The notes below the pieces were generated by a model. The model had not been told where the DNA came from. It worked only from the letters and a program-made list of their open reading frames with translations, and searched no databases. DNA of 64,000 bases, from NCBI RefSeq assembly GCF_006345805.1, contig NC_043005.1, positions 64,232,001 to 64,296,000 on the forward strand, given 5' to 3'. This document shows positions 3,072-50,285 of the stretch, piece after piece (position 1 is the first letter of the stretch; the number at the start of each line of letters is the position of its first letter). Source of the stretch: Octopus sinensis. Taxonomy: Eukaryota. Both the position numbers and the translations under genes were made by a program.

Positions 3072-4363
3072 CGAGGGACGTTCAATAAGTAATGCCCCTA
3101 ACCCACTTGCAATTGCTTGATCTAGCTGAAATGTTGCATGTGCAATTATTTATATATCTATAGATTAAGTGGCAAATTACAGCTCTGAACTAATTGTGGT
3201 TTTTGATTTACAGGTGTTTGAACAGAGTCAGGTGTGAAATGGAGCCTGTTGAGTATCGAGCAGTGATCCGGTTTTTGTATTTGAAAGGACGCACACCACG
3301 GGAGACTTTTGATGAAATGAAACTAACTTATGGTGATGATGCCCTATCATATGACCTTGTAAAACGCTGGCATCGTGAATTCAAACATGGACGGAACTCT
3401 GTGGAAACAGCTCCCAGATCTGGTCGCCCCCTTCTGTCATTGATGAGGCAGCTGTCCGTGAATTTGAGGCTGCCATTTTGGAAGATCGACGCATAAATAT
3501 TCGCCAAATAGCCCATGAGCTCAAGATTAGTATCAGGTCTGTGGAAACTATCATTCATGACCATTTGCATATGCAAAAGGTGTCTGCCAGATGGATTCCC
3601 AGGTTGCTCACACCTTTCCAGAAGCAAGAACGCGTCGAGTGCTCGAGGAGGAATTTGGAGATGTGCCAAGAAGATGAGTCAAACTTTTTCAAAAGACTGA
3701 TTACACAGGATGAAACCTAGGTCCATCACTATGATCCAGAGACCAAAGCCCAGTCAATGCAGTGGAAGCGCCGTGACTCACCTCCTCCAAAGAAGGCAAG
3801 GGTGCAGCCCTCCGCTGGCAAGGTCATGCACACAATCTTCCGGGACCAGGACGACGTAGTGATGACAGATTTCCTGGCAAAGGGTACCACAATTACAGGA
3901 GTCTCTTATGCTTCACTTTTGAGGAAATTAAGAGAAGCTATCAAAATCAGGAGGTGGGGCAAGATCAGCAAAGGCATCCTCCTCCTGCAGGACAACGCTC
4001 CGGTCCACAACTCGCGTGTCACCAGATCAGGAGCACAGGCGTGCGGCTATGGACTCCTCCCCCATCCCCCTACTCTCCCGACCTTGCACCCTCTGATTTT
4101 CACCTCTTGCCAGCCATGAAGTTGTTTTTTGAAAGGAAAGCGTTTCCCAGATGATGCAGCCTTGATTTCTGAAGTCAGGTCGTGGTTGGAGGACCAAGCT
4201 GGGGTCTTCTACAAAAACGGTCTCCAAAGCTGCATCAAACGATAGGAGAAATGCGTAACTCTGGGTGCTTCCTATGTAGAAAAAGGCTAATAACTGTGCC
4301 AAGTTTCGTTGCTCTACTGCTATGGGAGGTGGGTCAAGGGCATTACTTATTGAACGCCCCTCG
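3072..4363 (+). mobile_element. Full-length mariner (Tc1/mariner, D,D34D) DNA transposon
   Basis: Left TIR CGAGGGACGTTCAATAAGTAATGCCC matches the reverse complement of the right end (GGGCATTACTTATTGAACGCCCCTCG); TA flanks at 3070-3071 and 4364-4365; 1292 bp. Confidence 0.97.
3239..4290 (+). pseudogene. Disrupted mariner transposase
   Basis: MEPVEYRAVIRFLYLKG, RSGRP, WIPRLL, ITQDET* (TAG at 3718-3720 where W is expected), LLQDNAPVH, YSPDLAPSDF; several frameshifts. Confidence 0.95.
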
Positions 4364-14802: not shown

Positions 14803-15175
14803 TGAAGGCGGCGAGCTGGCAGAAACGTTCTGAGTTCAAATTCCGCCGAGGTCGACTTTGCCTTTCATCTTTTCGGGGTCGATTAAATAAGTACCAGTTA
14901 CGCACTGGGGTCGATATAATCAACTTAATCCGTTTGTCTGTCCTTGTTTGTCGTTTCTGTGATTAGCCCCTTGTGGGTAGTAAAGAGATAGGTATTGCGT
15001 CTGCCACTACGTTCTGGGTTCAAATTCCGCCGAGGTCGACTTTGCCTTTCATCCTTTCGGGGTCGATCAAATAAGTACCAGTTACACACTGGGGTCGATG
15101 TAATCGACTTAATCCGTTTGTCTGTCTTTGTTTGTCCCCTCTGTGTTTAGCCCCTTGTGGGTTGTAAAGAAATAG
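14803..15175 (+). mobile_element. SINE family A dimer with 16-bp TSD
   Basis: Two units carrying gcctttcatc[c/t]tttcggggtcgat..aagtaccag; TSD ttcagatgtactagta at 14787-14802 and 15176-15191. Confidence 0.9.
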
Positions 15176-15985: not shown

Positions 15986-18900
15986 GAGCCAATCAAAGCT
16001 AAAAAATAAACGAGCCAATCAAAGCTAAAAAATGATAACATTATCGTAGCACCAAAATGTTTTTGGAAACTAAAAGGAAAACTAAATCAGTATACCAAAT
16101 CGCTTGTCCTATGGTTAATCTGGAAGCGCGTCCCCCAGGGAAGAGCCAGCCTGGGATCGAAAAGTCATCAACTGGCACAAACTCTTCTACGAATACGGAC
16201 ATGGATGGTCACTTGAACAGGAAATCCCCCAACTCGAGCCCTCCAAGTTCACCACCACAACCACCACAGAAAGAAAAATGTAAGCGGAACAAATGGACCC
16301 GAGAAGAGTATAAAGAAGTAATATACGCTTATTACTATGCATTAGGTAGGCCATCTCAAGAGAGACACACCGCAAACTCTTACAGTATATGGAGAACACG
16401 GAATCAAGACAGTAGGCCCTATTTGGACGAGAACAAATTAGCAAATGTGAGGAGGGATATCTTTAGAAATAACAGACTCACAGACAGTGAAATAAGTGCG
16501 ATCAAGCACGCAACGGAAAATGACATAAATATAAGACACAAAGGAATTGAAGAATCAGATGAACAGTATAGCCCGCAACGAGGCTTAATTGAAAGACTGC
16601 CATCTGACCAAAGTACGCAAAGGCCTGAAGATACAAGAAATTCTATTGTACCTGTTAAAGATAGCCAGGAAAACGAAAAAACAACAGTAACTGAAGATCT
16701 CGCATTTGCTGAAGAACACAGAGAGTCTATGGCAGAAATGAGGCAGAAAATCCTGAATACGCTTGAAGTTGTAAGACATACAAGTATGAATGATAGAGAA
16801 CCGCTTCATAAACTCTCAAATACAAACCAAAATAAAAACAAATCCAAATTGGCAACTATGTAACAAATGAAATAATACGAGAATTAAAACCTGATTTTAC
16901 TGAGTTAAATGAAATTATTTACGCTTCTGCTAGTGCAATTGAAACCAGCTGTATGCCCCCGAAAAAACAAAGAAAACAAAACCTGGGAAGAAATCAAACC
17001 TGGAGAAGTAAAATTGAAAAAGAGATTGAATTTATGAGAGGGGAAATATCAATATTAAATGAACTAATATGTGGAAATGATGTAAGATCCAGAACAGGAA
17101 GAAAGATGAAGAGAAAATTTGGATCCTCACCAAGAGAAGAACTGATATCAATAAAAGAAACGCTGAAACAAAAAGTCCAAGCAAAAGCCCAAAGAATACG
17201 AAGATTTGAGAGAGAGAAACAAGTTTTACAAGCAAAATAAGCTGTTCACATCCAATGCCAAAACATTCTACACAGAGAAATAGGGAAGGAGAAAGTAACC
17301 GTTAAAGACCCCCCCCTCCCATGGAAGAAGTTCAAAACTTTTGGGAAAGGATTTGGAGTGACAAGAAGACGTACAACATAAATGCAGACTGGATTATACA
17401 AACTGAAGGATCCTACCAAAATTTACAACAAGCATGGGAAGACATCACAATAGCAGACCTAAGAAAGGCACTCACGAAGGCCCATAATTGGAAATCCCCC
17501 GGTAAAGATAGGGTGCCGAATTTCTGGCTCGCATCGCTCCCGTGCGCACACGGTAAGCTAGTTCAGCTGCTCAATGGAATTTTGAGAGACCCAAAGAAAA
17601 CACCTGAATGGTTAGCAAGTGGCATTACTTACCTACTCCCAAAGAATAACGAAACCAACCTTCCAAAAAACTATCGGCCTATAACCTGTCTATCCACCAC
17701 GTATAAAATCCTAACATCTATCCTGGCGAAGAAAACATATGCATTCATGGAGAAGAACGATATTTTCCCCATTGAACAAAAAGGGTGCCGCCGAGGCTCT
17801 TACGGATGCAAAGATCAACTGCTAATCAATCGTATGATCCTTGAGAACTGTCACAACAAGCGCAGAAATCTCAGCACCGCATGGATTGACTATAAAAAGG
17901 CCTTCGACAGTATACCGCATCCATGGATCTTGAGATCGCTGGACATCTTTAAAATTTCCCCTGTGATTTCAAACTTCCTGAAGCACAATATGTCGTTGTG
18001 GAATACGAATCTCCAATTATACCACTCTAATGGAGTACTTGTCTCAGAAAATATAAACATCAACTGTGGATTTTTCAAGGTGACTCACTTTCACCTTTAA
18101 TATTCTGCATAGCCCTAATACCCCTTACAAGTGAATTAAACAGAAAAGGGTATGGGTATAAAATTGCCAATAAAAAATAGCCATCTATTTTATATGGATG
18201 ACTTAAAACTTTATGGTAAAGACAATAATGAACTTGAAGGCCTATTGCGCACCGTGAAAGCATTCAGCGATGACATCGGGATGGAGTTTGGACTGAGAAG
18301 TGTGCCAAGGCCACTTTCCAGAAAGGGAAAGTGAAGACCACAAATTCAGTCGTGTTAGATGTTAACACAGTCATAAGAGAGCTTGAGCAAGAACAGACAT
18401 ACAAATATTTAGGGATAAATGAAGGCTCTGGTATTCAGCATGCAAGCATGAAAGAGAAAATCAGGAAGGAATGTTATAGGAGAGTTCGTGCAGTCCTGAA
18501 ATCTGAACTAAATGCACGTAACAAGGTGTTAGCTATAAATTCCTTAGCAGTTCCAGTTGTTACTTATAGCTACAATGTGTTGAACTGGAATATGAGTGAA
18601 GTAAAGAATATAGATAGAAAAATACGCAAGCTGCTGAGTTGTAATAGGATGCACCACCCAAAGGCAGACGTAGATCGCCTTTACCTTCCCAGAGCCCAAG
18701 GAGGTCGAGGCCTGATCCAATTTGAACTAGCTTACAAAACAACCACAATTGGACTGGCCAAATATCTCGAAATATCGAATGACTGGAAGCTAAAGCTCGT
18801 GGAAAATCACGAGAGACGAAAGAAGCTTCATTCTATCATCAAGGAAAGCAAAATATTTGCTATTGATCTCGTGCAGGATACCCAAACTGAACAACCCGAG

Positions 18901-19904
18901 GGAAGTACGGCAACCCTAAAATGATTGGCAATGAAAAAGCGCACGAGCAATTGGCTGATAGGTGGGAGGAGAAACCTCTGCACGGCAAATATGTGACCCG
19001 CAGCAAACAAGCTGATGTTGACCAGAAGCAAACCCATCAGTGGCTGCGGAGCTCAGGGCTAAAAGCAGAGAGCGAAGGTTTCATCCTGGCTGCTCAAGAC
19101 CAAAGCCTATTAACCCGGAACTACCAGGCCAATGTGATGAAAAATGGAGCAGACCCAAAATGCCGATTCTGCAACGACATGATTGAAACAGTGGACCACC
19201 TAATCTCTGGATGTAAAGTCTTAGCACCAGTGGAGTATAAATTAAGACATGACAGAGTTGGCCAATATCTCCACTGGCTAATAAGTCGGCATTACAATAT
19301 CAAAACTGCCGACAAGTGGTATAATCACCACCCTGAGGCTGTAACTGAAGGAGAAATGTAACCATTCTGTGGGACTTTCCAGTACATACAGACCGAACCA
19401 TCAAGGCCAGTAAACCAGATATTGTTGTGAAAGACCAAAACAATAAAGTTTGCTTATTGATCGACATGAGCATCCCCTGTGATCATAATATCTTAGCGAA
19501 AGAGTTTGACAAGCTCAGAAAATATAAAGACCTACTCATTGAAATTGAGAAAATGTGGCATCTCAAGGCGGTTACAATACCAGTGATCGTAGGAGCACTA
19601 GGAATGATCAAGAAGGGAACCGAAAATTATATGAGAATGATCCCTGGCTTACCATCCCTGCAAGAAGTGCAAAAGATTGTCTTAACTGGTACATCACACG
19701 TATTGAGAAGAGCATTGTCGATGTGAGAACTGTTGCTGCTCATGTATTTTAATTTAACTTTAAAAAAAAAAAAATAAAAAAAATGAACGAACTACTGAGT
19801 TTGGTTTAATGGCCTACCAATATACACTATGAGTTTCTTTGCCCTAGGAGTCGGGAAGACACTCGGCAAGAAATGGAAGAAAATTTGAAAGAAGAAAAAA
19901 AAAG
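15985..19904 (+). mobile_element. R4-clade (Dong-like) site-specific non-LTR retrotransposon in (TAA)n
   Basis: Single long RT-CCHC-RLE frame, short UTRs, A-rich 3' end, (TAA)n on both sides. Confidence 0.92.
16057..19726 (+). pseudogene. Frameshifted ~1200-aa ORF: Myb-like N-terminus, reverse transcriptase, CCHC knuckle, restriction-like endonuclease
   Basis: RNKWTREE, KSPGKD, YRPITCL, EQKG, WIDYKKAFDS, FQGDS, YMDDLKLY, YKYLG, CRFC..ETVDHLISGC, RHD, KPDIVV, LLIDMSIP, KLRKY; spread over successive frames. Confidence 0.93.
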
Positions 19905-19963
19905 TAATAATAATAATAATATAATAATAATAATAATAACAACAACAACAATAATAATAATAA
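19905..19963. repeat. (TAA)n/(CAA)n tract between the LINE and the 550-bp element
   Basis: Seen directly. Confidence 0.95.
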
Positions 19964-20501
19964 TTCCCTGATGCAGTACCAGGCAGTGGCTCTCGTGGCT
20001 TTTGATCTTAACTGATTGGAAGTGTTATTATCTACATTGCTTTGTCTTGGTATAAAAGATGAGCTACAGCAAATATTCTGCTCAATACCACAGATTTGCT
20101 TGTCAGTTGTTTGACCTTAACCAGTTGAGTATGTCCCTTAGTGGCTGACTATATGTGCATCTCTGATCATGAGCAGAAATAGTGGGGGAGTATCATAGCT
20201 ATGTGTTGAGAGGGATTCTTTGGAGTTTGAATAATTCACTTTTGGAAACATGGGCGATTCGTTCATCATCCTTAAACAACCGTTATTCGGGGACCTTTTG
20301 AGTGAAGAAAATTCTAACTGGGCCCCTACTTACAAGGTCACGCGTTGTTTGTCTTGATATGAGATCACCATGTCGCGCACATATGATTGTGATTAATGTG
20401 CCTGATTTACCCTTATCAGACGGGTAGTCATGAGGGGTATATTGAGCTTCGTATATTTGTATCCCAGTGTCACTTTGATGGCATGCGCTGCTCTCTCACT
20501 C
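19964..20501. mobile_element. ~540-bp non-coding interspersed element flanked by TAA-type repeats (copy 1)
   Basis: Collinear with 47816-48367; starts ccctgatgcagtaccaggcagtggctc and ends gctctctcactc. Confidence 0.85.
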
Positions 20502-20537
20502 ATTACTACTACTAATAATATTAATATCAATGATAAT

Positions 20538-22526: not shown

Positions 22527-22943
22527 TATTTCTTTATTGCCCACGAGGGGCTACACACAGAGGGGACAAACAAGGACAGACAAATGGATTAAGTCGATTA
22601 TATCGACCCCAGTGCGTAACTGGTACTTATTTAATCGACCCCGAAAGGATGAAAGGTAAAGTCGACATCGGCGGAATTTGAACTCAGAACGTAGCGCGAG
22701 ACGAAATACCTGTTTCTTTACTACCCACAAGGGGCTAAACACAAAGAGGACAAACAAGGACAGACAAACGGATTAATTCGATTATATCGACTCCAGTGCG
22801 AAACTGGTACTTATTTAATCGACCCGAAACGATGAAAGGCAAAGTCGACCTCGGCGGAATTTGAACTCAGAACGTAGCGGCTGACGAAATACCGCTAAGC
22901 ATTTCGCCCGGCATGCTAACGTCTCTGCCAGCTCGCCGCCTTA
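22527..22943 (-). mobile_element. SINE family A dimer
   Basis: Reverse complement of the family A head plus a second unit; TSD acgtttattc at ~22516-22525 and ~22945-22954. Confidence 0.9.
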
Positions 22944-22972
22944 ACGTTTATTCTAATATAATCGACACCCCT

Positions 22973-23190
22973 AAGGGGACGAGCTGCCAGAATCGTTAGC
23001 ACGCCGGACAAGATGCTTTACGGTATTCTCCCGTCTTTACGTTCTGCGTTCAATTTCCACCGAGGCCAACTTTGCCTTTCATCCTTTCGGGGGTGAATAA
23101 AATAAGTACCAATTGCGTACTGGGGTCGATGCAATTGACTTATCCCCACTCCGAAATCGGTGATTTTATGCCAAAATTTGAAATCAATAT
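22973..23190 (+). mobile_element. SINE family A monomer, older variant
   Basis: gagctgccagaatcgttagcacgccgg, gcctttcatcctttcgggg, aagtacc. Confidence 0.85.
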
Positions 23191-35085: not shown

Positions 35086-35660
35086 GAAGGTGGCGAGCTG
35101 GCAGAAATGTTAGCACGCCGGGCGAAATGCGTAGCCGTATTTCGTTTGCCGTTACGTTCTGAGTTCAAATTCCACCAAGGTCGACTTTGCCTTTCATCCT
35201 TTCGGGGTCGATAAATTAAGAACCAGTAACGCACTGGGGTCAATGTAATCGACTTAATCCGTTTGTCTGTCCTTGTTTGTCCCCGCTGTGTTTAGCCCCT
35301 TGTGGGTAGTAAAGAAATAGGTATTTCGTCTGCCGTTACGTTCTGAGTTCAAATTCCGCCGAGGTCGACTTTGCCTTTCATCCTTTCAGGGTCGATTAAA
35401 TAAGTACCAGTTACGCACTGGAGTCGATATAATCGACTTAATCCGTTTGTCTGTCCTTGTTTGTCCCTTCTGTGTTTAGCCCTTTGTGCGTAGTAAAGAA
35501 ATAGATATTTCGTCTGTCTTTATGTTCTGAGTTCAAATTCCGCTGGCGTTGACGCTGCTTTTCATCCTTTCAGAGTCGATAAATTAAGTACAAGTTCCGT
35601 ATTAGGATCGATCTAATCGACTGGCACCTCCCAAAAAATTTTGGGCTTTGAGTAGAAAAG
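35086..35660 (+). mobile_element. SINE family A trimer with 14-bp TSD
   Basis: One head and three core units; TSD aatatatttaacat at 35072-35085 and 35661-35674. Confidence 0.92.
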
Positions 35661-45069: not shown

Positions 45070-45677
45070 ACATTCAAAACCAAATCTGACTTTGCTTGTG
45101 CCTCGGAAGACCTGATTTATGTTATAAGATGCTCGGGCTGCCACCAAAACTACACAGGGTCCACGAGATTATCGCTCGGACGCAGATGCACTCTGCACCG
45201 ATAGCAGATTGCATTCACAGAATACAGAATGATACCCTTTAATGAACACAAAATCATATGCGCTAAACAACTGCTACCACAATTTGTAATCTTTCCATTT
45301 TATCAATGTGCTATTGGAACACCAACACAAGTTAGATTAAATAAGGAAACCTACTTCATTGAAACATATAAGCCAAATCTTGACCATTTCTAGAATTTTT
45401 AAATAAGGAAACTTACTTCATTGAAATATATAAACCAAAACTTAACCATTTCTAACATTTTATTCTATCAAAACCAAATCATGTTAAACTAACAAAATCT
45501 TATCATTCCCAACATTTTTATTATCTCCCTTATAACGAAAAATCCGTCTACCTCCCCCTGTTTCCAACTCTTCTACAGGGGGAGGTAGACGGATTTTTTC
45601 GTTATAGGGGAGATAATAAAAAATGTTGGGAATGATAAGATCTTGTTAGTTTAACATGATTTGGTTTTGATAGAATA
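45070..45677 (+). mobile_element. Penelope-like element 3' remnant (GIY-YIG) with inverted terminal segment
   Basis: DFACASEDLIYVIRCSGCHQNYTG and FPFYQC..RLNKETYFIETYKPNL; followed by a ~100-bp hairpin. Confidence 0.8.
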
Positions 45678-46170: not shown

Positions 46171-47499
46171 TGACTGATAAGACGCATATCGAAACAACGG
46201 TGTCCCAGAATCCTTTATACTTATGAATACAGTGTTCTATAAACACATATTCGTCATAAAGGAACTGTTCTCCTCTGACGAATACACCACCGATTTGCAT
46301 ATCCGCGTTCGAATCTGCTAATACGTATTAAGAATAAATATGCAAGTCTTGTAGTATATACATATATATGTATACCTCTGTGTGTATGTGTGTGTATATG
46401 TGTGCGGGTGTATCTATCTATTTATCTATCTATGTCTAAAGCTCTAATATAATTTAATATTTCATGAAGTAGAGTTATAACTCTTATTAGGTTACTATTT
46501 CGCAGAATTGATTCCGTTCCGCTTTCTAGAATCTGGTGTAAACTGCTATAACATCAAATAAAGAAAAGCTTACATATTCTTGCAGGAATATACAATGGCA
46601 TATTGTACAGCTCACTGATAATATAACATAATGGAGAAAGAATGTTTTATCTATTCTGCCTTTGACAATCTTGTAAATGGATATTCTTTTACCCAGTTGT
46701 GTTTAGTCAGCAGGAACAGACCCTATCCTTCTACAGTGTCTTGCAGATCAGCAGACAGGAATGGAAAAGTCAAGAATTCTACAATCTCTCCCTAATTTCA
46801 TCACTCATACAATCACGTACTCACGCAATATTTTGTTAAAAGTTCCAGGAGTAATGTTGTTTGGAATGTCTATAGAATGACATCACTACACCTGGAACAT
46901 TTTAATAAAATCATTTACATAATCCAAAAACCACACATTCTACTCACTCTAAATGCAGTTTTATAAATTTTCCAAATCCTATACTCGTGGATAAGAAGTA
47001 GACTTCAGCAATTTTTCAGCTATAATATTTATTGACAATCCAAAGGAACTAACTTAAGTTTATGTAAATTTGTGTTACAACCGCTACCGAAATATATTTA
47101 CATTTAATCCATGATTTCTCATGCATTACGCCAGTCACTTTATAGTGTGCTTTAAATCAGATTGATGTTTAAGCCTTCAGAACATACACCGGTCGTATCC
47201 AGCCAAAATAACCTAGCTGTTTTATCTTCAAACTAACCAGACCTAGGCTCTCATATTTACCCTGTAATATTATTCTAAAAATAAGCAATAACATCATTGA
47301 AATTTCAAAGCTGCAAGATAATGCTTGACAAATTGAAATCAATGTGAATAAATTAGCATTAGATTTGACAGAGAAATCTGAATGCTCAAAGGAGGTAAAG
47401 AAACACTGGTTTAACCCAAACAAGGTCAAATATCTTCTTTTGTGCATTATTTACATTATTTACATTCAACAGATAGTTGTCCTCATCTTGCTTATTGTT

Positions 47500-47545
47500 A
47501 TCACAACGTTTCGGTTGATATACCCTCCAGCCTTCTTCAGGTGTC
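47500..47545 (-). ncRNA. Minimal type-I hammerhead ribozyme motif with mismatches in stems I and II
   Basis: GACAC CUGAAGA A GGCUG..CAACC GAAAC GUU GUGAU on - strand. Confidence 0.6.
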
Positions 47546-47815
47546 TTGGGGAAATTCCGAACCTGGGTTCTCATTCCTAAGGTATTTTTCGATGATGTTC
47601 TTGTTCTTGTTGTTGTTGTTGTTGTTGTTGTTCAGGTCACTGCTTGGAATCGAACTCGGAATCTTGGGATTAGTAGCCCGCGCTCTTAACCCCAAGATTC
47701 CGAGTTCGAATCCAAGCAGTGACCTGAACAATAATAATAATTATGATGATGGTGATGATGATGATGATGATAATAATAATAATAATAATAATAATATAAT
47801 AATAATAATAATAAA

Positions 47816-48367
47816 TGCCCTGATGCAGTACCAGGCAGTGGCTCCCATGGCTTCTGATCTTAACTGATTGGAAGTGTTATCGTGTACATTGTTTTATCTT
47901 GGTACAAAAGATGGGCTACAGCAAATATTCTGCTCAATACCACAGATTTGCTTGTCAGTTGTTTGACCTTAACCAGTTGAGTATGTCCCTTAGTGGCTGA
48001 CGATATGTGCATCTCTGATCACGAGTAGAAGTAGTGGGGGAGCATCATAGCCATGTGTTGAGAGGAATTCTTTGGGGTTTGAATAATTCACACTTAGAAA
48101 TATGAGTGTTTCGTTCAACATCCTTAAACAACCCTGTTTCAGGGACCTTTTGAGCAGGATGGGCTACTCGACCTGAAGAAAATTCTAACTGGGCCCCACC
48201 TGCAAGGTCATGTGCTGTTTATCTTGATATGAAATCATGTCGTGCCCATATGGTTGTGATGCATGTGCCTGGTACACCCTTATCAGACAGGTAGTCATGA
48301 TGGGTATGCTGGGCTTCGTATATTTTACCCCAGTGTCACTTTGATGGTATGCACTGCTCTCTCACTC
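47816..48367. mobile_element. ~550-bp non-coding element in (TAA)n (copy 2)
   Basis: Collinear with 19964-20501; (TAA)n on both sides. Confidence 0.88.
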
Positions 48368-48427
48368 AATAATAACAATAATAATAATAACATCGAAAAA
48401 TACCTTAGTATTTCGAAATTTCCCCAA

Positions 48428-48473
48428 GACACCTGAAGAAGGCTGGAGGGTATATCAGCCGAAACGTTGTGTT
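48428..48473 (+). ncRNA. Minimal type-I hammerhead ribozyme motif
   Basis: Stem I GACAC/GUGUU, core CUGAAGA, stem II GGCUG/CAGCC, GAAAC, palindromic ACGU, GUU cleavage triplet. Confidence 0.72.
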
Positions 48474-48874
48474 AACAACTAACAAGATGAGGACAAATAT
48501 CCGTCGAATGTAAATAATGTAAATAAGGTAAATAATGCACATAATTCCTCAACTCTTAAATATAGAACTGTCTTTTCTATTGTGCATGAAACTTGAGTTA
48601 CTGTCAGAAACCATAGAATTTACATTTTATAAAATCTGTATTAAATAATAGCTGATATAAATGTTTGATGGCTGGCTGATTGATTGATTTCTCTAGTCAC
48701 GCTTTACATAGTACCGAGAGAGAGCAAAACAGTAATAGAGGTGAGAGAATAAAAGAGAGAGTTAACATAAAAGGTGCAGGATGAGTACACATACTAGGTT
48801 TGATGGCAGGCAGTGAGTAAAGGAAAGCTACATACACTCACACACTGTGAGAAAGAACTATAAAGACGGTGTAG

Positions 48875-50089: not shown

Positions 50090-50285
50090 AAATGTGACCG
50101 CGTGTGTGCCGTTGGCGATTTTTTCCTCCGTCTTCCCTTTGGATCTTTCCTTTTCCTATGTTTCTGACGAAGAGCTCCGCTCGAAACGTTAAACCCCTTC
50201 TTTCCTGAGCCTCCAATAATACTATACTTGTTCCACGTCCTCGCGTTGTGTTTTCTCTTTGTGTTTTTATGTTTGGATTAACGTT
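50090..50285 (+). mobile_element. ~200-bp PLE pseudo-LTR-like or retrozyme-like fragment between TA-rich repeats
   Basis: Pyrimidine-rich segment around an intact hammerhead motif. Confidence 0.6.
50160..50194 (+). ncRNA. Minimal type-I hammerhead ribozyme motif
   Basis: GUUU CUGACGA A GAGC ucc GCUC GAAAC GUU AAAC; stems I and II fully paired. Confidence 0.8.

What the first reader, a model, noticed from the sequence alone, without database searches (positions are those of the whole stretch)
47440..48570. Top candidate: tRNA-headed, hammerhead-tailed palindromic retroelement
The unit reads as a tRNA-like head (gttaagagcgcgggctactaatcccaagattccGAGTTCGATTCC, B-box), then an (AAC/AAT)n spacer, then a ~150-180 bp tail with a minimal hammerhead. 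Two units point outward from a central 22-nt loop, so each strand encodes one ribozyme. Minimal hammerheads with palindromic stem III, and inverted partial copies, are established PLE features; schistosome Sm-alpha repeats set a precedent for Pol III promoter plus hammerhead. Inference: this is a Pol III SINE or retrozyme that self-cleaves and is mobilised by Penelope machinery. I cannot confirm from sequence alone that it is undescribed.
Basis: partly seen in the sequence, partly recalled or inferred. Interest (0 to 1): 0.8.

Follow-up and report, generated by a model that had tools for sequence, protein, structure and literature searches.

The report
Penelope retrotransposon with tRNA-derived promoter cassette
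This is a decayed back-to-back pair of end fragments from a Penelope-type jumping gene whose terminal repeat unusually carries a tRNA-like piece, likely an RNA polymerase III promoter, in front of a predicted self-cutting hammerhead RNA.

Summary
Head, (AAT/AAC)n spacer, minimal hammerhead and tail together are the terminal repeat (pLTR) of an autonomous Penelope/Poseidon-type element. The head follows the GIY-YIG ORF end in 27 of 30 loci picked by ORF DNA, and full pLTR-ORF layouts exist.

The window holds an ordinary inverted double insertion. It has a 13-bp target duplication, the known 30-40-nt PLE 'tail' on one arm, a central deletion that removed both A boxes (the '22-nt loop'), a damaged left ribozyme, and a 554-bp foreign insert.

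The unusual part is the tRNA-derived A/B-box cassette inside the pLTR. Copies start just upstream of it (26 of 30). The element's sense strand lacks TTTT terminators over 2.6 kb (p about 0.03). Related PLEs lack the cassette (0 of 26).

Pol III transcription of the pLTR is likely, and of the whole coding element possible. Neither is shown at RNA level. I found no report in ten literature searches; Repbase and Dfam could not be checked.

The parts
47435..47447 (+). left target-site duplication (13 bp, overlaps the left arm's end by microhomology)
   Evidence: 13 nt with 1 mismatch to 48575-48587; family-wide 25 of 40 long/short pairs have >=10 nt, against 2.2% in the null
47441..47690 (-). left arm: 5'-truncated inverted pLTR copy, short 3' end (no tail)
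47500..47545 (-). left minimal hammerhead, damaged (one mismatch each in stems I and II)
47596..47632 (-). left (AAC)n spacer
47633..47690 (-). left tRNA-like head remnant; B box at 47646-47657, A box deleted
47687..47691 (.). 5-bp microhomology at the central deletion that removed both A boxes and the palindrome centre
   Evidence: comparison with intact loci such as L005
47687..47729 (+). right tRNA-like head remnant; B box at 47702-47713, A box deleted
47730..47814 (+). right (AAT/GAT)n spacer, first part
47815..48368 (.). unrelated 554-bp repeat inserted later into the spacer
   Evidence: second copy 19963-20502, 86%; also beside the spacer in L011, L097, L120
48369..48427 (+). rest of the spacer and pLTR middle segment; 12-bp deletion relative to the left arm
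48428..48473 (+). intact minimal type-I hammerhead: stem I 48428-32/48469-73, core 48433-39, bulged A 48440, stem II 48441-60, loopless palindromic stem III, predicted cut after 48468
   Evidence: cleavage not tested
48540..48570 (+). PLE 'tail' extension, present on this arm only; in tandem copies it is read in frame with the RT ORF
48575..48587 (+). right target-site duplication

Best explanation
The locus is a dead inverted double insertion of the terminal repeat (pLTR) of an autonomous Penelope/Poseidon-type retrotransposon whose pLTR contains a tRNA-derived A/B-box cassette that likely works as an internal RNA polymerase III promoter. Shown: the layout is ORF(RT, GIY-YIG), stop, about 35 nt, tRNA-like head, (AAT/AAC)n, min-hammerhead, tail, next ORF start. 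Inferred mechanism: (1) Pol III would start about 6 nt upstream of the head and run through spacer, uncleaved hammerhead and tail, and in tandem copies possibly on through the TTTT-free ORF. (2) The PLE RT/endonuclease nicks both target strands 9-16 bp apart and primes on RNA at two internal sites 30-40 nt apart (shown in vitro for the anole Poseidon element, PMC11167929). This gives one long and one short arm, often from two different RNA molecules. (3) cDNAs that reach the RNA 5' end finish in a self-complementary 10-mer and join head to head or snap back, which builds the palindrome. (4) Here the centre was later deleted and another repeat jumped into the spacer. The hammerhead is predicted to cleave only as a dimer or with protein help, and only occasionally.
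For: PLE origin: the head lies downstream of the GIY-YIG ORF end in 27 of 30 ORF-picked loci, 24 of 27 after merging four near-identical loci. The tandem junction ORF-head-HHR-tail-ORF is seen in L139/L161, and head-HHR-tail-ORF in L164, L168 and L170. L153 is a near-full-length degenerate copy. Protein relatives are RVT_1-bearing, 51-66% identical at best. PLE insertion signature: 59 head-to-head pairs and 0 tail-to-tail among 203 arms; 40 of 59 pairs are long/short; target duplications >=10 nt in 25 of 40, null 2.2%. Pol III cassette: head aligns to genomic tRNAs above all 500 shuffles; A box matches in 59 and B box in 46 of 85 heads. 5' ends: 26 of 30 head-picked copies start at -12..0 although longer copies match the query equally. 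In one search, 32 arms start at -7..-2 and none between -198 and -25. No TTTT in 2621 nt of L153 (trinucleotide shuffles expect 4.3, 0/300), against 9-13 runs in Neptune ORFs of like base composition. 16 runs in 45.9 kb of 68 copy segments, none shared by more than 2 copies, as expected for neutral decay of a TTTT-free founder. The cassette is absent between ORF and hammerhead in 0 of 26 related PLE loci. Two templates: the core N7 variant differs between arms in 10 of 44 pairs. Ribozyme: N7, the one free core position, is the only common non-CpG variant (A103/T73). Stem I pairs (>=3 bp) with different letters in 18 of 23 hammerhead variants across families.
Against: There is no direct evidence of Pol III transcription or of an RNA 5' end. 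The TTTT deficit is modest: synonymous-codon shuffles give 13/400 for L153, the copies share one ancestor, and 4 of 41 related PLE segments >=1 kb without the cassette also have none. The 5'-end pile-up coincides with a small self-complementary motif that could itself favour joining. The head no longer folds as a tRNA and has no Rfam match. An uncapped Pol III transcript needs an unexplained route to translation. The excess of copies starting at the hammerhead cut site (11 of 59) drops to 7 after removing two microhomology deletions and one palindromic junction counted twice. Only 11 of 173 arms keep a strictly intact ribozyme.
Confidence: 0.7

Rival explanations
1. The tRNA-like piece is a passenger: an old SINE or tRNA fragment that landed in the PLE 3' UTR. 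The element is made by Pol II like other PLEs, and copies break at the head because of the small palindrome there.
For: D. virilis Penelope uses a TATA-less, LINE-like internal promoter with an intron (PMC2377424). The head is degenerate. TTTT depletion is only p about 0.03.
Against: The pile-up is sharp, with a common boundary at -6, a purine after a pyrimidine, 13 nt before the A box. It holds also where the upstream partner is flank or a non-head part of the other arm. A 4-bp hairpin is a weak RT block (inference). A and B boxes are kept while tRNA stems are lost. No GT-AG joint was among the 15 of 55 joints shown.
Confidence: 0.2
2. One reading: an independent tRNA-headed SINE or retrozyme family that took the PLE tail and amplifies in trans.
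For: Most head-bearing copies lack ORF sequence (26 of 30), so the short copies do look like SINEs. Schistosome hammerhead SINEs are a precedent (review PMC6765202).
Against: The head is part of the autonomous element. There is no fixed diagnostic site between 65 short and 20 ORF-linked copies; both N7 subfamilies occur in both classes; the between-class distance of 0.110 lies between the within-class 0.103 and 0.116. No head-to-tail arrays of the headed unit were seen in the loci examined.
Confidence: 0.08
3. The palindrome arises purely by snap-back of one cDNA, so the two arms are copies of a single RNA.
For: Arms agree at N7 more than chance: 34 of 44, Fisher p 6e-4. Short inverted head pieces sit at many junctions.
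Against: 10 of 44 pairs differ at N7, an A/T transversion. Within-pair distance (0.090) is close to between-pair distance (0.096). The fixed long/short asymmetry fits two priming sites (PMC11167929).
Confidence: 0.15

Closest known systems
Penelope/Poseidon-clade PLEs (D. virilis Penelope; Anolis PAc, PMC11167929)
   Same: Single RT + C-terminal GIY-YIG ORF without the Neptune zinc-knuckle linker; pLTR with min-HHR; reading frame overlapping the hammerhead region; 30-40-nt tail on one end; inverted 5'-truncated upstream copy; partial tandems.
   Different: A tRNA-derived A/B-box cassette at the start of the pLTR, copies starting at it, and a TTTT-free sense strand. The only characterised PLE promoter I read about is LINE-like with an intron (PMC2377424).
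TRIMp3 elements: Cassandra, Helenus, Ajax (PMC10886601)
   Same: Small-RNA-derived, presumed Pol III promoter inside a terminal repeat.
   Different: Those are short non-autonomous LTR derivatives with PBS/PPT. The author states that their autonomous partners must use Pol II. Here the cassette is in the autonomous, non-LTR-type element itself.
Schistosome Sm-alpha/Sj-alpha hammerhead SINE-like repeats (seen through review PMC6765202 only)
   Same: Pol III-type promoter followed by a hammerhead.
   Different: Described as non-coding tandem or multimeric repeats. Here the unit is the pLTR of a coding PLE and is arranged head to head.
Animal non-LTR retrozymes (bioRxiv 10.64898/2026.07.22.740005)
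   Same: Non-coding derivatives of PLE pLTRs with hammerheads.
   Different: Head-to-tail arrays. That paper has no occurrence of tRNA, Pol III or promoter. A headless tandem mini-derivative of this family fits that class better (L185, L188-L190).

Membership tests
Penelope/Poseidon PLE | RT followed by C-terminal GIY-YIG endonuclease in one ORF | tested here: met
   Frameshifted ORF in L153 matches an 858-aa relative along residues 46-844 at 39-57%. Endonuclease motif read by eye. The Pfam scan of the C-terminal fragments gave no significant hit.
Penelope/Poseidon PLE | No zinc-knuckle between RT and EN (separates it from Neptune/Nematis) | tested here: met
   Absent in alignment A1; present in the genome's Neptune-type ORFs.
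Penelope/Poseidon PLE | pLTR with minimal hammerhead, formed by partial tandem | tested here: met
Penelope/Poseidon PLE | Inverted 5'-truncated copy and 30-40-bp tail on one end only | tested here: met
   59 head-to-head pairs, 0 tail-to-tail; 40 of 59 long/short; features as
Penelope/Poseidon PLE | Placement in an RT phylogeny | not tested
   No tree built.
Penelope/Poseidon PLE | Intron in the pLTR (some members) | tested here: inconclusive
   No GT-AG joint among the 15 of 55 joints shown.
tRNA-derived SINE | tRNA-related head with A and B boxes | tested here: met
   for the family; the A box is deleted in the window copy. Parent isotype unresolved (Gln and Arg tie, Cys close, among 12 anticodon types sampled).
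tRNA-derived SINE | Non-autonomous family with its own lineage, distinct from the partner element | tested here: not met
tRNA-derived SINE | Transcribed by RNA polymerase III | not testable with these tools
   Indirect only.
non-LTR retrozyme | Head-to-tail tandem monomers, one hammerhead each | tested here: not met
   The window unit and its family are head to head.
non-LTR retrozyme | Circular RNA intermediate | not testable with these tools
   No suitable RNA data.
minimal type-I hammerhead of PLEs | Conserved core, stems I and II, bulged base before stem II, loopless palindromic stem III | tested here: met
   Right arm; description in PMC4209133; left arm damaged.
minimal type-I hammerhead of PLEs | Covariation in stems | tested here: met
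   Across families only: stem I >=3 bp in 18 of 23 variants; stem II >=3 bp was a filter. No compensatory change was sought or expected within this roughly 10%-diverged family.
minimal type-I hammerhead of PLEs | Self-cleavage as a dimer | not testable with these tools
   Weak genomic hint: 7 unexplained 5' ends at cut+1..+5.

The most novel reading that the evidence does not exclude
An autonomous, protein-coding retrotransposon of about 2.8 kb that is transcribed end to end by RNA polymerase III from a captured tRNA promoter in its pLTR, kept free of TTTT terminators by selection, translated without a cap, and shedding SINE-like short copies from the same promoter.
Probability: 0.35. Interest if true: 0.85.

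Novelty: new variant of a known kind. Interest (0 to 1): 0.6.

Why it matters
How PLEs are transcribed is known from very few elements. A pLTR with a tRNA-derived promoter would show a PLE making SINE-like RNAs from its own end, a direct route by which tRNA-head-plus-hammerhead repeats could arise. If Pol III also transcribes the ORF, it contradicts the stated expectation that autonomous elements must use Pol II (PMC10886601) and raises a testable question about translating an uncapped Pol III mRNA. The family's many two-armed insertions also give genomic support for two-strand, two-template priming in PLE integration. The window copy itself is a dead relic of no likely function.

Tried and rejected
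1. Rfam and ARAGORN: no tRNA or hammerhead hit in the window or on an intact head.
2. The GIY-YIG family search returned mostly Neptune-type PLEs with no match to this tail; I used them as controls. The PLE RT upstream of the tail in L023 belongs to a different family.
3. Expression: no RNA holder listed. Raw RNA-seq reads from three runs mapped in equal numbers to both strands, 87-89% ran on into unlike flanks, and no start or end pile-up appeared. This is uninformative for Pol III starts or cleavage. Contig depths were not used as copy numbers.
4. A TATA-like element about 25-30 nt upstream of the inferred start cannot be told from the AT-rich background of real tRNA flanks, so it was dropped.
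5. Parent tRNA is unresolved.
6. MFE co-folding did not produce the double-hammerhead dimer; this is not informative for a loopless stem III.
7. Earlier scan notes: nothing found.
8. Literature: searches listed no paper whose title or abstract start describes a tRNA/Pol III cassette in a PLE pLTR; most listed papers were seen only as listings. The 1994 octopus SINE paper (PMID 7932738) and the hammerhead-dimer paper (PMC5785218) are not held, and Repbase/Dfam are not searchable here. The short form may therefore already be catalogued as a SINE or PLE entry. No supplements were read.
9. Rows dropped: four near-identical loci of one insertion (L132-L134, L154, and in some scripts L137 or L153); 5 of 80 metagenome loci (L240, L260, L263, L264, L281); one search kept the 52 of 80 with >=900 aligned nt.

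Full report
Observation. The window has inverted arms at 47438-47561/48412-48535 and 47619-47677/47682-47740. The minus strand reads tRNA-like head, (AAC)n, middle segment, hammerhead. The plus strand reads the same, but a 554-bp unrelated repeat is inserted at 47815-48368, with a second copy at 19963-20502. The right hammerhead is an intact minimal type-I motif with the predicted cut after 48468. The left one has a mismatch in each stem and does not fold. Rfam and ARAGORN see neither head nor ribozyme. The genome is 2.72 Gb in 13,516 contigs; its repeats look octopus-like, which is my inference and comes from no call.

The unit is a dispersed family. A search with it gave 3845 first-look candidates, of which 40 were scored. 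Intact loci show a longer head with an A box and, in inverted pairs, a near-perfect palindrome around a 2-nt centre. The window copy lost this centre between two TAACC repeats, so the '22-nt loop' is a deletion scar and both A boxes are gone. The head aligns to this genome's tRNA genes with score 58 (Gln and Arg tie, Cys 57), against a null of 34.4 +/- 4.0, max 51 in 500 shuffles.

It is the end of an autonomous Penelope-like element. A tail-only search found a locus where a GIY-YIG ORF runs into the tail, and another where the ORF end is followed directly by the head. Searching with that ORF DNA (2338 candidates, 40 scored, 30 fetched), the head lay about 135 nt past the query, some 35-40 nt after the stop codon, in 27 of 30 loci, or 24 of 27 after merging near-identical loci. 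L139/L161 shows ORF-head-hammerhead-tail-ORF start; L164, L168 and L170 show head-hammerhead-tail-ORF; L153 is a near-full-length decayed copy. The frame runs through the hammerhead region and tail into the ORF, as in an 847-aa relative. There is no zinc-knuckle linker, so it is Penelope/Poseidon-type rather than Neptune; no tree was built. Contigs from runs labelled as two other organisms bridge the ORF end and the head (X16 records 6 and 8, X18 record 23).

The palindrome is standard PLE integration. Among 203 unique arms there are 59 head-to-head pairs and no tail-to-tail pair. 40 of 59 pairs have one long arm with a tail of about 30 nt and one short arm, and 25 of these 40 have a target duplication of 10 nt or more against 2.2% in mismatched pairs. 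The window copy has a 13-bp duplication with one mismatch. Inverted truncated copies and a one-sided 30-40-bp tail are described PLE features (bioRxiv 10.1101/2021.04.23.441226, passages). Opposite-strand minimal hammerheads 100-700 bp apart were noted in PMC4209133 (passages and part 1 of 4 of the text). PMC11167929 (passages and second half of the main text) shows in vitro that a Poseidon protein nicks and extends both strands, starts RT at two internal RNA sites that bound the tail, uses mostly uncleaved RNA, and that its hammerhead needs the protein. Here the arms differ at core position N7 in 10 of 44 pairs while agreeing more than chance (p 6e-4), so at least some insertions used two RNA templates.

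It is not an independent SINE. 65 head-starting and 20 ORF-linked copies show no fixed diagnostic difference. The six columns at p<0.05 are minor-allele differences, and part of the short set was chosen by head similarity. Both N7 subfamilies occur in both classes.

What is unusual. First, the tRNA-derived cassette sits in the pLTR of the coding element. Of 75 related PLE segments from metagenome contigs, 26 had a hammerhead downstream of the ORF and none had an A+B box pair before it. Second, 5' ends pile up just upstream of the head: 26 of 30 head-picked copies start at -12..0, and 32 arms start at -7..-2 with none between -198 and -25. The commonest boundary, -6, is a purine after a pyrimidine, 13 nt before the A box, as expected for a Pol III start (general knowledge, recalled). 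Third, the sense strand lacks TTTT. L153 has 0 runs in 2621 nt (trinucleotide shuffles expect 4.3, 0/300; dinucleotide 3.5, 4/300), against 9-13 in four Neptune ORFs and 8 in the window's LINE. 68 copy segments have 16 runs in 45.9 kb, none shared by more than two copies, matching simulated decay of a TTTT-free founder. Against this, codon-aware shuffles give only 13/400, two partial copies each had one run, the copies are one lineage, and 4 of 41 cassette-less relatives of 1 kb or more also have none. The point is suggestive, not proven.

Ribozyme. N7, the free core position, is the only common non-CpG variant in the 135 columns examined. Across 23 hammerhead variants from this and other families the same layout holds with different stem letters, stem I pairing in 18. 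11 of 59 truncated arms start 1-5 nt after the cut site, 7 after removing microhomology artefacts: a weak hint of occasional cleavage. Most copies are decayed, with 11 of 173 strictly intact. In the window the two motifs are on opposite strands, so one transcript cannot form a cis dimer.

Comparison and verdict. The element is a member of Penelope/Poseidon PLEs on the structural tests run. It works like TRIMp3 elements and schistosome hammerhead SINEs in pairing a Pol III-type cassette with a mobile end, but is a member of neither. PMC10886601 (abstract and discussion) expects autonomous partners to use Pol II. PMC2377424 (passages) found a LINE-like promoter in Penelope. The 2026 retrozyme preprint (abstract and term search) does not mention tRNA or Pol III. 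PMC6765202 and PMC6962438 were seen as passages. Ten searches listed no report of this cassette, but repeat databases and the 1994 octopus SINE paper could not be checked. My estimates: PLE pLTR identity about 0.95; Pol III-driven pLTR transcripts about 0.7; Pol III transcription of the whole coding element about 0.35. New variant of a known kind; interest 0.6.

Noticed in passing
window 50157-50197 (+): A second minimal hammerhead from another family, with the same layout but different stems; its region matches DNA near a Neptune-type GIY-YIG fragment in L069.
   Followed up: partly
window 47815-48368 and 19963-20502: A 554-bp non-coding repeat sitting in (AAT)n tracts, also in or beside the spacer of other copies (L011, L097, L120). 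The second copy lies just 3' of the LINE below, so it may be a microsatellite-targeting partner of it.
   Followed up: partly
window 16039-19726 (+): Frameshifted LINE with RT (PF00078) and a C-terminal region resembling restriction-like endonuclease LINEs (label recalled), followed by (TAA)n.
   Followed up: partly
L185, L188-L190 (G000:C27) and other hits covering only query 1-120: A headless internal-deletion derivative (hammerhead, tail, first ~120 nt of ORF, back to the middle segment; about 290 nt) repeated at several loci, partly in tandem: a retrozyme-like mini-element of this PLE.
   Followed up: partly
L155-L158 and many hits: An abundant, young Neptune-type PLE family with open frames of 780-883 aa.
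   Followed up: partly
window 14825-15175, 35137-35622, 22823-23091: A 184-bp repeat in tandem, and an inverted pair of the same repeat forming a long hairpin; likely a common SINE.
   Followed up: no
window 45337-45677: 62-bp tandem duplication next to a 59-bp, 98% inverted repeat with a 99-nt spacer.
   Followed up: no
window 3721-4154 (+): Mariner-type transposase fragment (PF01359).
   Followed up: no
proteins P0001-P0008, cluster 5: The closest protein relatives are 51-66% identical, and one cluster has barnacle-annotated members; whether those elements carry the tRNA cassette could not be seen.
   Followed up: partly
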